From positions 260,207 to 324,206 of the forward strand of contig NW_019217885.1 in the NCBI RefSeq assembly GCF_002571385.2: a stretch of DNA of 64,000 nucleotides. The letters are read 5' to 3'. Below, piece after piece: positions 12,001 through 64,000 of the stretch. Every line of letters starts with the position of its first letter. Positions within the stretch are counted from its first letter, which is position 1. Made by a program: the position numbers. The DNA comes from Stylophora pistillata (lineage: Eukaryota).

Positions 12001-15000
12001 TAGGGTCGAAATTAAATGGTTTTTGACTCCCTAGAAGCGAAAAGAGACGCTCAGAATTTGTTAGCTCTTTCCACGCGCAAGACTGAGCGCAAATTTGAAT
12101 ATTAATTTTGAAATTCTTTGTAATTCAAATGAGTTTTCCGACTTCAATGGGCGTGTTCAACATAATCGACATCGAATTTCAGCTCACTACACAACTGACA
12201 GTAATATATTGAACCATTAGGTTTATTTTGTTTCGGCTGAGCACCAGCGTACAATAATGAAGAAAAACATATACAAAACCGTTGCATTCTCAGTAATCGT
12301 CATTACAGCACACGACAAAACGACATACCGAGAGGTATGGTGGAGGATTCTAGTTGCGTTACAATAAAATTTGCCTGATCCTCTTAAGCTCTGTAATATT
12401 ATAATTTAGGATCCCTCCCCCGTTGGCAGTAAATTTTCCCTTATACTCTTTTGGCGACGACTGGTGCTCCTGCGTTCCCCCTGAAAACCATATGATCCCT
12501 CTGTAATCCTCCGGTCCTCCAGGAGAGAAATAATGATTAGTCCATAAGTTACCATATTTCCTTGAATAAACGCCCACCCCCGAGGTCATCATATCAAAAG
12601 AGCGCCCCCTTCGAATAGGCGGTCCCCCCTCCTCCCTCACTTTTTGAAATAGTAGGGAAACGGGGGAAACTGTTTTTATTACCACTTTATTTACAACTTT
12701 TTAAGCTTCAACCGCGTATTAGTACAGATTGTTTTTTTGTTTTTTTTAATCAGCGCCCTCCTCTCCTTTAGCCGAAATTTAAAATAAGCGCCCGAGTAAA
12801 ATATGGCTTCTGCTACTAGTCAGTGATTATCGGATCTGTTTTTCATTTCTAAGGGCATTTCGAAGAAACAAGGTGCTGCTGTGTTTTAATCTGCCCAGCT
12901 GTCGTACGAACAACCGTCTATGTCACTTTTAAAACTTTGAATCCCTTTTCTATCCAGTTGAGTATTCTCACGTACATTCTCCTTTCCATTTGTGAGATCT
13001 AAAGAGGTGTTCATTGGCCAAGAATAGAGCAAAAGAAGGAAAGAGCACCGTGTCGTCCGCCCGGAAAAACGCCAATTTGGATAGAGCTGATCTCTCCAAT
13101 TACTTAAATAGAAATTTCCACCTTTGCCACCCCCTCAGATATTTGTACAGAAGACAACAGCTCGACTCTTTGGACAGAACCAAACCTTGTAGGCGAGGAA
13201 AGGGATAATGCGTCAAATCAGAGTTCAATGCATAAATCAATCAAAATGGAGTGACTGAGTGAGTGAATTTTAGGTCACATTCCTGAACCTCGTAACATAA
13301 CTAATGCCATACCATGGGGTAAAAAGTAAGAAAAAAAAAAAAAAAAAAACCCTAACAATGTCATTTCACTCCAAAATAATTAAATAAATAAGATTAATAG
13401 GTCACAGACCTACAAAGGGTTCAGCAGTCTTTTTTATTTTTAAGTTCATCTTTGAAAGTGAACGCCAACAATATCTCGTGCACCTCTCTTGTTACTTGTC
13501 GTTAAATATATAAAACATCGCAGCAATAGGGGTTTCCCTTGAATAAAGCTAACAAAAACTCGGGTTGATAAGAAAAAGGTTCAGAGATTTTTCTTAATCA
13601 ACCACAGCTTATCTGGAAGACTTGTAAATGAACAAGTACTCACAAAAAAATTCGCTTTGACATGTTCATAACATTACAATAGCGTGAGTAAGTCTTGCCA
13701 CAAGTTTGTCACCTACTTGAGGGAGATTTCGAATTCCCACTAAACCTCATAATTTCTACTGCCTTTGTCTTATTTTTCAACCAAGCTGATATTGGGATAA
13801 GGGTTTTTTACTCGCCTGATATTAATTAAGTCTGACTAGTCAATCCTCAAATAACCTTAGAGACGTCCTTATTTCTGCGGAGTGACATTTCAGTTTAAAA
13901 TTACCAAGCTAAGGTTTAGTAGTACAGTATTAAGATCATCTACAAGACGCTTCCAGATTTTAAAATGTCTCAAAAAGGCAGTATTTCCTAGTGTGGTGAG
14001 CTAAAATATCTTTCACAGTTTACGAAAAATGTTGTTCTTGTTTTATTTCGCTTTAATTCGGCCACTACTAGAGATAAGTTTTTAACTTGGAAAAACAGGA
14101 ACCCCTTGTCTCCGCGCGATTATTAATTGCCGTTAGCACCTTCTTTAACGCGATAATTTATAAAAATAATAGAATAATTCTCTCTTGTTTTCTGTCATAC
14201 ATCTGCTGGTGATCCGCTTCTCTTGACTGTGATCATTTTTTGACGGACAACTGCAAACACCACAACACACAGCAGAGCAAACATTCCGAGGACGAAAGAA
14301 ACACCCAACAAGGGGTGCTGGCCTGGAGAATCTGAGGATGGAGGAGAAATCAATACCACGGTTATTTTAGGACATAAAAATTCAATTTTCTAAAGAAATT
14401 AGAATGATATGGGTTTTACTCTTCTGCTTCTCGTGATTGGCTGTGAAAGCTTGTATTAGCGTTTTGGACCAATCAAAGGCAAAACTGAGACAGTCGTACC
14501 AGTCTCCCTCGCTCGAAGCCGATTACGTGTATTTGATGCCTCTTTACCTCTTTGTAAGATTTCCCTATGTCGTGATTGACCTTGATTATTGACGTTGATT
14601 ATTGACCTTGATTATTGACTTTGGTTATTGACCTTGGTTATAACTTTGGTCTTGATTTTTCGCCAAAAAAACTTACAAACAAACAAACAAAACCTCCAAA
14701 TTACAACCATAAATAATTATAAAAGATTTGTCACTTTTTTTCCTACTATAAAGAGAAAAGATAGAAAAAATTAAAGTATCTAGTATTCTTCTTTTTATAA
14801 TTTTCCACCTCTTCATTAATTCATAAACGAGTTTGCTATTACAATCTACCAGATTAATTATCATTATTGAAAATATCATTCTTAATTCAATACCTTTAAA
14901 TTGTTCAGGGTTCGTTAACCAAATAGGGCCATGGCTGAGTAACGTGGTGTGCACAGGTGCACTATATGGAAGGGCTCTGCGATGGCGGTTCCTGGGAAGT

Positions 15001-63000: not shown

Positions 63001-64000
63001 TGTGCAGTTTCTTCCATTGCCCCGATAGCCACTGAGACAGCGACAGATGTACGACCCGTCAGTGTTGTTACACAGCGCTTTGCGATCACAATCGTTCGTG
63101 TTAGGGTTTGCACACTCGTCAACATCTGCAAATAGAAGAAAATATTTGGTTTCACTCTCATCTTAGGAACGGAGCTACTGAGACAATAGTACTCTCCATA
63201 TCTTACTAGCTTTGCTTTAGTGCATATATACCTTCCCAGCATAAAGTGTACCTTTCAGAAAATTGTTACTTTTTTTGTAGATGTATTAATTTTTTTTTTC
63301 TGCTTGACGAAGAAAGCATTCTATCCTTAAGTACCAAACAATGTTTATTCCACTATCTACTTATCACAACAAACAAGTTACCTTGACAATTTCCTGCCTC
63401 TCCAGCATACCCAGGGGCACAACTGCAGGAGAAAGAACCAACTGTGTTCACACATTTCTCATTGGCGCCACACGCATCTTTCTCTGCGCATTCATCAATA
63501 TCTGTTAAAGGAGAAATAAGGAAGGATGACGGTTAGTGCAAGACAAGGAAAATACGCTTAAGTTACCTTAAGACCTCTCAATTCAGTGCATGAATTTTAA
63601 GTTCCGTCAATATATAACAAATAAATCCATTTTACAAAGTTCAATTGTATAGGTTTAATATAGTTCACCTTATAAATATTTTTACCTCGGCATGTCTGGC
63701 CATCACCATTAAAACCTTGTTTGCATCTGCACATATAACTTCCCAGGGTGTTAGAACAATTTCCATTAACATCGCAAGAGTTCTCGCCATTTTCGCATTC
63801 GTCGACGTCTGTACCAGAGAACAAAGAAAATATACCTTACATGATATCGCCTGCTGACAATTTCCAGTGGAAAGAACCCTTGTGCTTAAGTTGTTATGAG
63901 AATAATTGACAAGGATAGTTGACTGGCAGGATTGCTGTCTCATTTTAGGAATGAAATTCGTTCAAGGATGTTTTTAGTCGACCAAGTGTTCACGCTAGAC

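What the first reader, a model, noticed from the sequence alone, without database searches (positions are those of the whole stretch)
14195..63808. Giant EGF-VWA-ZP membrane-anchored protein with at least 92 EGF modules
Seen in sequence: 90 EGF exons, a VWA domain, 2 EGF, a ZP module, furin site, EHP, TM and a short tail. That is over 4,200 aa, and the gene is still open at the window edge. Established: Drosophila Dumpy and C. elegans FBN-1 are giant EGF+ZP apical-matrix tethers, and ZP proteins such as uromodulin polymerise after cleavage at the consensus site. Inference: this is a cnidarian-type ZP filament carrying very long, acidic, Ca2+-binding EGF arms. It is a candidate for mucus/apical matrix, tissue-to-skeleton attachment or skeletal organic matrix. 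Automated pipelines would probably split it into 'fibrillin-like' and 'uromodulin-like' fragments.
[Added by the scan's program, not by the reader: the finding's places include an assembly gap (unread letters, written N; its length is only estimated) at 15748 to 15758, 48393 to 48766. Whether the letters on both sides are continuous or in frame is not known: test that first.]
Basis: partly seen in the sequence, partly recalled or inferred. Interest (0 to 1): 0.75.

Follow-up and report, generated by a model that had tools for sequence, protein, structure and literature searches.

The report
Giant anthozoan EGF–VWA–ZP matrix gene
The window holds the last 50 kb of what is most likely one very large coral- or sea-anemone-type gene for a membrane-anchored, probably filament-forming surface-matrix protein with about ninety calcium-binding EGF beads: a known kind of protein in an unusually long form.

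Summary
On the minus strand, from 63808 down to the stop codon at 14195-14197, lie 96 exons with 96/96 AG acceptors and 95/95 GT donors. There are 89 sound six-cysteine EGF exons, one more with Trp in place of a Cys, one VWA exon, a 39-nt linker exon, ZP-N, the first ZP-C exon, an exon with the ZP-C end, an RHRR site and a hydrophobic patch, and a TM/tail exon. Two further EGF modules are defective. Visible coding sequence is about 4,167 aa, and the 5' end lies beyond the window.

Gap test: the exons flanking the gap at 15748-15758 are out of frame with each other. Spliced relatives carry a ~40-aa ZP-C exon there that is nowhere in the visible sequence, so an exon is hidden or lost. The gaps at 48393-48766 and 40656 lie in introns and do not affect the frame.

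Spliced relatives (an Acropora digitifera fragment named "SCUBE2", a Nematostella protein and unnamed ORFs) confirm the EGF-EGF-linker-ZP-TM splicing. The join of the EGF array to the VWA exon is inferred only. The ZP module is uromodulin/GP2-like. The VWA domain has no MIDAS motif.

The kind is known (uromodulin, FBN-1, Dumpy). This architecture was not found in print. Function is untested. The joined-model search was left out.

The parts
49179..63808 (-). EGF zone 1. 28 sound six-Cys EGF exons of 114-126 nt and mixed types, including three non-calcium-binding 38/39-aa modules at 62160, 54484 and 51526. The first visible exon is 63686-63808; the gene continues 5' of the window.
57371..57496 (-). 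EGF exon with Trp in place of the fourth Cys. AG acceptor and GT donor are intact and it is 126 nt, phase 1-1. Kept in the model.
45661..49178 (-). Largest interval between exons (3,518 nt), holding the assembly gap 48393-48766. No Pfam domain on either strand. The flanking exons are both phase 1-1.
41674..45660 (-). EGF zone 2. 9 cbEGF exons of 117-126 nt; after the first two, three repeats of a 39/40/41-aa module triplet.
22440..40994 (-). EGF zone 3. 50 sound cbEGF exons, all 123 nt, mostly separated by 72-400 nt. Includes a 236-bp exon-plus-intron tandem array at 35049-37362. The single N at 40656 lies in the intron 40524-40871.
27242..27364 (-). Full EGF module with an in-frame stop in place of a Cys. 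Left out of the model; skipping it keeps the frame.
22115..22234 (-). Half EGF module. TG-rich sequence stands where its first half should be and there is no in-phase AG acceptor nearby. Left out of the model.
21499..22041 (-). Single VWA exon, 543 nt (181 aa), phase 1-1. Confident VWA fold without a MIDAS motif.
20688..20798 (-). Non-calcium-binding EGF exon, 111 nt.
   Evidence: P0170 residues 5-39, 60% identity.
20058..20180 (-). cbEGF exon, 123 nt, the last EGF before the ZP module.
   Evidence: P0170 residues 41-81, 73% identity.
18132..18170 (-). 39-nt acidic linker exon, phase 1-1.
   Evidence: The same linker is present in P0003 and P0170.
17346..17625 (-). ZP-N exon, 280 nt, phase 1 to 2.
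16246..16551 (-). Exon with the fourth ZP-N Cys, the linker with the internal hydrophobic patch region, and the first half of ZP-C. 306 nt, ends in phase 2.
15057..16245 (-). Interval holding the assembly gap 15748-15758. A ZP-C exon of about 121 nt (1 nt plus about 40 codons in relatives) is expected here and is not in the visible sequence. The visible flanking exons are out of frame with each other.
14894..15056 (-). Exon with the last ZP-C cysteines, the RHRR furin-type site and a following hydrophobic stretch (candidate external hydrophobic patch). 163 nt, starts in phase 0.
14195..14331 (-). Last exon: TM helix, 16-aa cytoplasmic tail and the TGA stop at 14195-14197.
14042..14047 (-). First AATAAA downstream of the stop, a candidate polyadenylation signal.
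   Evidence: Sequence match only.

Best explanation
What it is. The region 14195-63808 (minus strand) is the 3' 50 kb of one very large anthozoan gene. It encodes a type I membrane protein of the zona-pellucida-module class.

Domain order. At least 87 tandem, mostly calcium-binding EGF domains, one per phase 1-1 exon. Then one MIDAS-less VWA domain, one plain and one calcium-binding EGF, a short acidic linker, a uromodulin/GP2-type ZP module, an R-H-R-R cleavage site, a hydrophobic patch, a TM helix and a 16-residue tail.

Shown here. The exon structure, the domain content, coding constraint on the EGF exons, and the splicing of the last two EGFs through ZP to TM in relatives.

Inferred from what is established for uromodulin, ZP3 and FBN-1. 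The precursor is held at the apical membrane with polymerisation blocked by the patch after the cleavage site. Cleavage at RHRR releases the ectodomain, and the ZP modules join head to tail into filaments. The acidic, Ca2+-stiffened EGF rod then projects from the filament as a long arm. At the roughly 2.5-3 nm per cbEGF that I recall for fibrillin, this would be a few hundred nm. The VWA domain at the base of the arm would serve as a metal-independent docking site for another matrix component.

Most likely setting. An apical or surface matrix: epidermal coat or mucus, the calicoblast-skeleton interface, or the oocyte surface. Which tissue is not known.

Also inferred. The symmetric exons would allow arm length to vary by exon skipping.
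For: Gene structure. 96/96 AG acceptors and 95/95 GT donors. All EGF, VWA and linker exons are phase 1-1. Median intron is 306 nt. Exon GC is 0.469 against 0.372 for introns.

Strand. All EGF signal is on one strand: 91 against 0 and 97 against 0.

Coding constraint after duplication. In 64 of 64 adjacent pairs of 123-nt exons pN is below pS (means 0.205 and 0.614). Median dN/dS is 0.19 over the 45 pairs with finite dS. The highest exon-exon identity is 93.5%, so the copies are not assembly duplicates.

Domains. Pfam EGF, VWA, ZP-N and ZP-C. No other domain in 119 non-exon minus-strand segments at E<=0.01, and none in the large 45.7-49.2 kb interval on either strand.

Splicing in relatives. 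P0003 and P0002 map exon by exon to ZP-N, ZP-C exon 1, the cleavage-site exon and the TM exon. P0003 and the A. digitifera model P0170 join the two EGFs, the linker exon and ZP-N.

ZP type. P0003 matches uromodulin at E 4e-22 across ZP-N and ZP-C and, in the full-length chain, on past the cleavage site (33-314 against 333-611). GP2 scores 8e-16. The window's own ZP-C exon matches uromodulin at 7e-5. Foldseek ranks uromodulin filaments first at 2.3e-16.

VWA. pLDDT 94.3. TM-score about 0.8 to PTMP1, VWF A3, integrin I domains and collagen VI.

Arm chemistry. Net charge -485 over 3,675 residues. 84 of 90 modules carry the cbEGF start motif and 81 of 90 the Asp/Asn-hydroxylation consensus.

Precedent. 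FBN-1 has EGFs, a ZP domain, a furin site directly after it and a TM segment, and sits in the apical sheath (PMC4395870, passages).
Against: - No transcript or spliced relative joins the EGF array to the VWA exon, or the VWA exon to the next EGF. All close VWA relatives are unspliced single-exon ORFs; 0 of 117 short representatives carry an EGF signature.
- No full-length relative was found. Candidates above 2,000 aa could not be searched by the word-index tool. The all-length scan showed only multi-VWA proteins at 24-32% identity.
- One ZP-C exon, holding two of the conserved cysteines in relatives, is not in the visible sequence. Without it the frame breaks.
- Three EGF modules are defective.
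- The N-terminus and signal peptide are outside the window.
- The Nematostella relative P0156 has a Pro/Thr-rich repeat, not a VWA domain, before its two EGFs, so the upstream part is not conserved, or that model is a paralogue or a fragment.
- The patch after the cleavage site is modelled at pLDDT below 50 in the relative (residues 282-324), so its role as an external hydrophobic patch rests on position and on the uromodulin alignment only.
- Polymerisation, cleavage and location are all untested.
Confidence: 0.7

Rival explanations
1. Two or more genes lie head to tail on the same strand: an EGF-only 'fibrillin/Notch-like' gene (for example zone 1, 63.8-49.2 kb, or the whole array) and a separate shorter gene, VWA-EGF2-ZP-TM or EGF2-ZP-TM.
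For: No junction evidence links the array to the VWA or ZP part. Module type changes abruptly across the 3.5-kb interval that holds a 374-N gap. The gap could hide a terminal or a first exon. The Nematostella relative has no EGF array or VWA domain in its 529-aa model. Phase 1-1 exons are typical of shuffled matrix genes and do not prove co-transcription.
Against: No stop-bearing terminal exon and no convincing Met-plus-signal-peptide first exon was seen in the large intervals (a crude screen). No Pfam domain lies in the 45.7-49.2 kb interval on either strand. Phase is unbroken from 63808 to the ZP-N exon. The VWA exon begins in phase 1 about 400 nt after a sound EGF exon, with no room for a promoter and signal-peptide exon of the usual size.
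Confidence: 0.17
2. The locus is a decaying gene or pseudogene. The ZP-C exon is truly deleted, which breaks the frame before the cleavage site and TM helix, and the defective EGF modules are signs of decay.
For: The middle ZP-C exon was found nowhere in the visible window. Visible exons are out of frame across that interval. One module has an in-frame stop, one has a Cys-to-Trp change, one is half destroyed, and there are five remnants.
Against: An assembly gap of unknown true length sits exactly in the interval where the exon is expected. All 96 modelled exons keep their splice sites. EGF exons show strong purifying selection, with pN below pS in 64 of 64 adjacent pairs. The exons after the interval still match relatives and are open to the stop. 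The defective modules can be skipped without a frame change.
Confidence: 0.08
3. The repeat array is inflated or scrambled by mis-assembly of a shorter tandem array.
For: Three assembly gaps lie in the locus. Zone 3 is a long array of similar 123-nt exons with a 236-bp unit.
Against: No two exons are more than 93.5% identical. Neighbouring exons are 53-93% identical and neighbouring introns 18-75%. The tandem array matches at only 69%. Collapse would make the true gene longer, not shorter.
Confidence: 0.03

Closest known systems
Uromodulin (UMOD) and GP2, vertebrate ZP-module filament proteins
   Same: Best solved-structure relatives of the ZP module by sequence (E 4e-22 and 8e-16 with relative P0003; 7e-5 with the window's own ZP-C exon) and by fold. 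cbEGF domains lie N-terminal to the ZP module. The match to full-length uromodulin runs on past the cleavage site. Both are membrane-anchored precursors.
   Different: From recall: uromodulin has only a few EGFs plus a D8C domain and a GPI anchor, and no VWA domain. Here there are at least 87+2 EGFs, a VWA domain, a TM helix and a cytoplasmic tail. Identity is about 28%.
C. elegans FBN-1 and Drosophila Dumpy, giant EGF+ZP apical-matrix tethers
   Same: A very large protein with many EGF domains, a C-terminal ZP domain, a furin site directly after it and a TM segment. FBN-1 is secreted to the apical sheath (PMC4395870, passages read). This is the best match for overall architecture and for how the protein probably works.
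   Different: FBN-1 has long Ser/Thr-rich regions. Dumpy has its own DPY modules (recalled). Neither is reported with a VWA domain. Homology of the ZP modules could not be tested: neither protein is in the PDB hit lists, and the name-giving searches were limited to 634 aa or 2,000 aa.
Anthozoan EGF2-ZP-TM relatives: Nematostella vectensis 'predicted protein' P0156 and Acropora digitifera P0170
   Same: Same C-terminal core with the same exon junctions: plain EGF, cbEGF, acidic linker and ZP-N in both. P0156 (45-52% identical to the window's three ZP exons) also has ZP-C, an R-H-R-R site and a TM segment. P0170 is 60-76% identical to the window exons.
   Different: P0156 has a Pro/Thr-rich repeat upstream, not a VWA domain or an EGF array, in its 529 aa. 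P0170 is a 189-aa fragment named after SCUBE2. Neither shows the giant array.
Molluscan EGFZP shell-matrix proteins
   Same: [quoted passage not shown] This is the same plan as the C-terminal core here.
   Different: Small proteins with no EGF array and no VWA domain. Relationship not tested.
Fibrillin / LTBP family
   Same: Long tandem arrays of cbEGF, one per exon. A window EGF exon matches fibrillin cbEGFs at 3e-8, weaker than NELL2, Notch1, ADGRE5 and the uromodulin EGFs.
   Different: No TB/8-Cys domain was found in any segment scanned. Fibrillins have no ZP module or TM helix.
Coral skeletal organic matrix 'ZP domain-containing protein' (G8HTB6 / AET09743.1)
   Same: An anthozoan ZP protein with a furin-type site between the ZP domain and the TM segment. 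It is a core skeletal matrix protein (PMC4890752, PMC3748352, PMC8382919; passages read).
   Different: It is discussed among proteins with a single ZP domain. No named hit for it came back in the two searches whose length range could have included it, so it is probably a different ZP gene. Its length is recalled only. The alignment and architecture figures are in supplements I could not see.

Membership tests
ZP-module proteins (Pfam ZP-N PF23344 + ZP-C PF00100) | ZP-N domain with four conserved cysteines | tested here: met
   PF23344 at E 2.7e-12. Three Cys lie in exon 17346-17625 and the fourth at the start of exon 16246-16551 after splicing, as in P0003.
ZP-module proteins (Pfam ZP-N PF23344 + ZP-C PF00100) | Complete ZP-C domain with its conserved cysteines | tested here: inconclusive
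   PF00100 at E 4.6e-16 but only profile positions 3-75 of 133. The last cysteines are in exon 14894-15056. The middle exon, about 40 aa in relatives, is not in the visible sequence, and an assembly gap lies where it is expected.
ZP-module proteins (polymerising type, as uromodulin/ZP3) | Consensus cleavage site after ZP-C, followed by an external hydrophobic patch and a membrane anchor | tested here: met
   R-H-R-R lies 9 residues after the last ZP-C Cys, followed by a hydrophobic stretch, a TM helix and a 16-aa tail. The alignment of P0003 with full-length uromodulin runs past this site. Caveat: the patch is at pLDDT below 50 in the model of the relative.
ZP-module proteins (polymerising type) | Forms filaments after cleavage | not testable with these tools
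   Needs protein-level observation.
Calcium-binding EGF (PF07645) | Six-Cys EGF with the N-terminal D/N-x-D/N-E/Q-C motif and the Asp/Asn-hydroxylation consensus | tested here: met
   84 of 90 cores start with the motif and 81 of 90 have the hydroxylation consensus. The motifs were typed from recall. EGF_CA or EGF_3 was found in 93 of 327 segments.
VWA domain (PF00092) | Rossmann-like VWA fold | tested here: met
   PF00092 at E 2.7e-15. Model pLDDT 94.3 and pTM 0.91. TM-score about 0.8 to PTMP1, VWF A3, integrin I domains and collagen VI.
VWA domain (PF00092) | MIDAS motif D-x-S-x-S (recalled definition) | tested here: not met
   By my register (strand Asp and Phe aligned to the recalled VWA strand motif), the window has A, L and D at the D, S and S positions. 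The commonest residues there in 111 aligned relatives are S (61 of 81), T (34 of 81) and D (33 of 82). The Pfam match starts only at profile position 15.
Fibrillin/LTBP | TB (8-Cys) domains interspersed with cbEGF | tested here: not met
   No TB or other non-EGF family in the array. Searches used E<=1e-5 and 1e-6. One search covered 119 non-exon segments at E<=0.01: 4 EGF remnants and 2 sub-threshold chance hits. One search covered 11.8-26.2 kb at E<=0.01.
Uromodulin family proper | D8C domain between the EGFs and the ZP module, and a GPI anchor (recalled) | tested here: not met
   Only a 13-aa linker lies between the last EGF and ZP-N. The C-terminus is a TM helix plus a charged tail. No Pfam hit other than ZP-N and ZP-C downstream of the last EGF.
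Dumpy / FBN-1-type giant EGF-ZP tethers | Giant EGF array, C-terminal ZP, furin site and TM in one polypeptide | tested here: inconclusive
   All parts lie in order and in phase on one strand, but the join of the array to the ZP part is not shown by any transcript. Orthology to Dumpy or FBN-1 is not testable here because neither came back as a named hit and the length limits excluded them.

The most novel reading that the evidence does not exclude
The gene is a cnidarian counterpart, by descent rather than by convergence, of the bilaterian giant EGF-ZP tethers (Dumpy, FBN-1). On this reading, a membrane-born ZP filament with very long Ca2+-stiffened EGF arms that ties an epithelium to an overlying extracellular structure predates the cnidarian-bilaterian split. 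In stony corals it would be the tether between calicoblastic cells and the skeleton, or the scaffold of the surface mucus layer, with arm length tuned by skipping of symmetric exons.
Probability: 0.15. Interest if true: 0.65.

Novelty: new variant of a known kind. Interest (0 to 1): 0.4.

Why it matters
Apical and surface matrices of cnidarians (mucus, the cell-skeleton interface, egg surfaces) are poorly described at the molecular level. 'Uromodulin-like' genes recur in coral and anemone expression studies without a clear picture of the proteins behind the name (PMC13581030, PMC6626399, PMC4320547, PMC12549020; passages read).

If this locus is one gene, some of those short 'uromodulin', 'SCUBE2', 'Notch' or 'fibrillin' annotations may be fragments of giant EGF-ZP proteins. 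That would change counts of matrix genes, the reading of skeletal and mucus proteomes, and the dating of Dumpy/FBN-1-like tethers.

It is also a practical warning for annotation. 96 small symmetric exons spread over 50 kb, with gaps, are easily split.

The class of protein is well known, so the find is solid but not startling.

Tried and rejected
1. To reach candidates above 2,000 aa I gave search for homologous proteins a raw genomic reference with 'region' set to the ZP-C exon.
2. The VWA exon against longer proteins returned one hit, an unspliced ORF.
3. The VWA exon against all 1.84 billion representatives gave 713 hits. The close ones are all single-exon ORFs. The long ones (1,916-6,024 aa) are multi-VWA proteins at 24-32% identity. 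No giant orthologue was found.
4. ESM Atlas with the VWA exon returned generic VWA clusters only.
5. I looked for the missing ZP-C exon in the visible sequence using slices of two relatives at permissive settings. Nothing scored below E 0.25 and nothing plausible lay in 15057-16244. A three-frame reading of that interval also showed none.
6. A screen for Met-plus-hydrophobic first exons on the minus strand found nothing in the 45.7-49.2 kb interval. It is a crude screen and weak evidence.
7. Pfam on both strands of that interval and on plus-strand ORFs across the locus found nothing, so there is no sign of a nested gene or transposon protein.
8. The structure model of the relative's whole ZP region reached only pLDDT 65.6. 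It is good enough for fold matches per domain but not for the hydrophobic patch.
9. Genome contigs (bacteria and archaea) and the phage, plasmid and E. coli collections were not used because they cannot hold this gene.
10. The joined-exon model was not searched, folded or printed. All searches were exon by exon or with natural ORFs of relatives.
11. I considered and rejected two readings: a fibrillin orthologue (no TB domains, and a ZP module and TM helix are present) and the coral skeletal ZP dcp (not retrieved).

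
Full report
**Layout of the window.** The window is 64 kb at about 39% G+C. It has four runs of N: 11272-11632, 15748-15758, 40656 and 48393-48766. 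An EGF signature and the cbEGF start motif each occur 91 times on the minus strand and never on the plus strand, between 20053 and 63836. The gene therefore runs from high to low coordinates, and its 5' end lies beyond base 64000.

**Domain content, exon by exon.** I translated every minus-strand stop-to-stop segment of 40 aa or more and scanned it against Pfam.
- 11.8-26.2 kb: 9 of 88 segments are EGF-positive. One is VWA (PF00092, 2.7e-15), one ZP-N (PF23344, 2.7e-12) and one ZP-C (PF00100, 4.6e-16, profile positions 3-75 of 133 only).
- 26.2-45 kb: 55 of 122 are EGF-positive at E<=1e-5.
- 45-64 kb: 29 of 117 are EGF-positive at E<=1e-6.
- A rescan of 119 non-exon segments at E<=0.01 found 4 EGF remnants and 2 sub-threshold chance hits. 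There are no TB domains and no other domain in the array.
- Both strands of the large 45.7-49.2 kb interval, plus-strand ORFs over the locus, and both strands of 1-14 kb gave one hit only, a Mab-21_C domain at 4768-5724 on the plus strand.

**Exon model.** A six-Cys regex finds 90 cores.
- A GT donor sits at the expected base in 90 of 90 and an AG acceptor in 87 of 90. All lengths are multiples of three, with phase 1 on both sides.
- Two of the three exceptions have an AG 3 nt further upstream.
- The third (22115-22234) has TG-rich sequence where its first half should be and no in-phase acceptor. I left it out.
- A profile built from the modules finds 97 hits on the minus strand and 0 on the plus strand. 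The extras are a complete module with Trp for the fourth Cys and sound splice sites (57371-57496, kept), a complete module with an in-frame stop (27242-27364, left out) and five remnants.
- With the VWA exon (21499-22041), two EGF exons, a 39-nt linker exon (18132-18170), ZP-N (17346-17625), ZP-C exon 1 (16246-16551), the cleavage-site exon (14894-15056) and the TM exon (14195-14331), the model has 96 exons and 12,505 nt. Acceptors are 96/96 AG and donors 95/95 GT. Median intron is 306 nt.
- Exon G+C is 0.469 against 0.372 for introns.

**The assembly gaps.**
- 15748-15758 lies in the interval 15057-16245. The exon before it ends in phase 2 and the exon after it starts in phase 0, so the running phase of the visible exons ends at 2, not 0. 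The two sides are not in frame.
- Spliced ORFs of relatives map to the four visible C-terminal exons and leave about 35-40 residues unmatched exactly there. In P0003 that stretch is the middle of ZP-C.
- Permissive searches found no trace of it anywhere in the visible window.
- Either the gap is much longer than 11 bases and hides an exon of about 121 nt, or the exon is lost and the gene is broken.
- 48393-48766 lies in a 3,518-nt interval between two phase 1-1 exons, so the frame is kept whatever it hides. It may hide further EGF exons.
- The single N at 40656 lies in an intron.

**Real, constrained exons rather than assembly copies.**
- Neighbouring exons are 53-93% identical and neighbouring introns 18-75%. 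No two exons exceed 93.5%.
- The 236-bp exon-plus-intron array at 35049-37362 matches at only 69%.
- Among the 65 exons of 123 nt, all 64 adjacent pairs have pN below pS (means 0.205 and 0.614). Median dN/dS is 0.19 over the 45 pairs with finite dS.

**The arm.** The 90 cores hold 3,675 residues with D+E 667 and K+R 182.
- 84 of 90 start with the cbEGF motif, 81 of 90 carry the hydroxylation consensus, and there are 71 N-glycosylation sequons.
- Three zones differ: 28 mixed modules, then 9 modules (a 39/40/41 triplet three times after the first two), then 50 sound, near-uniform 41-aa modules.
- A typical exon matches cbEGFs of NELL2, Notch1, ADGRE5, uromodulin and fibrillin. The modules are generic cbEGF.

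**The VWA domain.** It is one exon. The model is confident (pLDDT 94.3) and superposes on PTMP1, VWF A3, integrin I domains and collagen VI at a TM-score of about 0.8. The MIDAS positions are not conserved, either in the window or in 111 aligned relatives.

**The ZP end.**
- With the relative P0003, uromodulin is the best solved relative (E 4e-22). In the full-length chain the match runs through ZP-N, ZP-C and past the cleavage site. GP2 follows at 8e-16.
- The window's own ZP-C exon also hits uromodulin first (7e-5). Its ZP-N exon hits only TGFBR3, weakly. The cleavage-site exon hits nothing.
- A moderate model of P0003 (pLDDT 65.6) finds uromodulin filaments first by fold (2.3e-16).
- After the last Cys come R-H-R-R, a hydrophobic stretch, a TM helix, a 16-aa tail and TGA. 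An AATAAA lies about 150 nt downstream.

**Relatives and splicing.**
- Searches with single exons or natural ORFs of relatives found P0003 (362 aa) and P0002 (319 aa), both spliced.
- A profile of these relatives found a Nematostella 'predicted protein' (P0156, 529 aa). It has a Pro/Thr repeat, EGF, cbEGF, ZP, RHRR and TM.
- The same search found an Acropora digitifera model (P0170, 189 aa) named 'signal peptide, CUB and EGF-like domain-containing protein 2'. It is EGF-cbEGF-linker-ZP-N and maps to the window's exons at 60-76% identity.
- These confirm every junction from the first post-VWA EGF to the stop, and they place the window in Anthozoa, though not in A. digitifera.
- Nothing joins the array to the VWA exon. 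The close VWA relatives are unspliced exon ORFs. No giant orthologue appeared.
- The joined-exon model was deliberately not built for any search or fold.

**Reading.** Most likely (0.7) this is one gene for a membrane-born ZP-filament protein with a very long acidic cbEGF arm and a MIDAS-less VWA domain at its base. It would work like uromodulin in assembly and like FBN-1 or Dumpy in architecture (PMC4395870, passages). The rivals are two genes (0.17), a decaying gene (0.08) and mis-assembly (0.03).

**What is in print.**
- Coral 'uromodulin' paralogues are tissue-specific, oral epidermis against aboral tissue (PMC13581030, passages).
- A ZP protein is a core skeletal matrix component (PMC4890752, PMC3748352, PMC8382919; passages).
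- An ovary-upregulated Euphyllia transcript has EGF repeats, a ZP domain and a TM segment (PMC7579821, passages).
- None of these could be tied to this gene.
- My searches found no description of an EGF(n)-VWA-EGF2-ZP protein. Supplements that might show one were closed.

Noticed in passing
window 4768-5724 (+): A 319-aa open frame with a Mab-21 C-terminal domain (PF20266, 6.8e-14). Its best solved relatives are cGAS-like receptor 1 (1.9e-11), MB21D2 and cGAS. It is a cGAS-like / Mab-21 family gene about 8.5 kb downstream of the ZP gene's 3' end, on the other strand.
   Followed up: partly
window 11079-11151 (+): A tRNA-Thr (anticodon AGT), found by both Rfam (41.9 bits) and ARAGORN, just before the 361-N gap at 11272-11632.
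   Followed up: no
window 18347-18705: A 65-bp minisatellite, 5.5 copies at 97% match, in the intron between the linker exon and the last cbEGF exon. Smaller arrays lie at 14575-14641 (13 bp x 5.2, in the last intron) and 47505-47638 (44 bp x 3, in the large interval).
   Followed up: no
one search hit list (P0007-P0155): 117 of the 150 best representatives for the VWA exon are short single-exon ORFs at roughly 27-73% identity. The nine that I read end at the same exon bound (a Gly where the donor lies), and the family shares a conserved strand motif without MIDAS. This suggests a large family of such VWA exons in other genomes. What genes they sit in is unknown.
   Followed up: partly
P0156 (Nematostella vectensis), residues 1-70: The Nematostella relative starts inside a Pro/Glu/Thr-rich short repeat (mucin-like) directly before its two EGFs. 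The arm attached to this ZP core may therefore differ between anthozoan lineages, or that gene model may be truncated.
   Followed up: no
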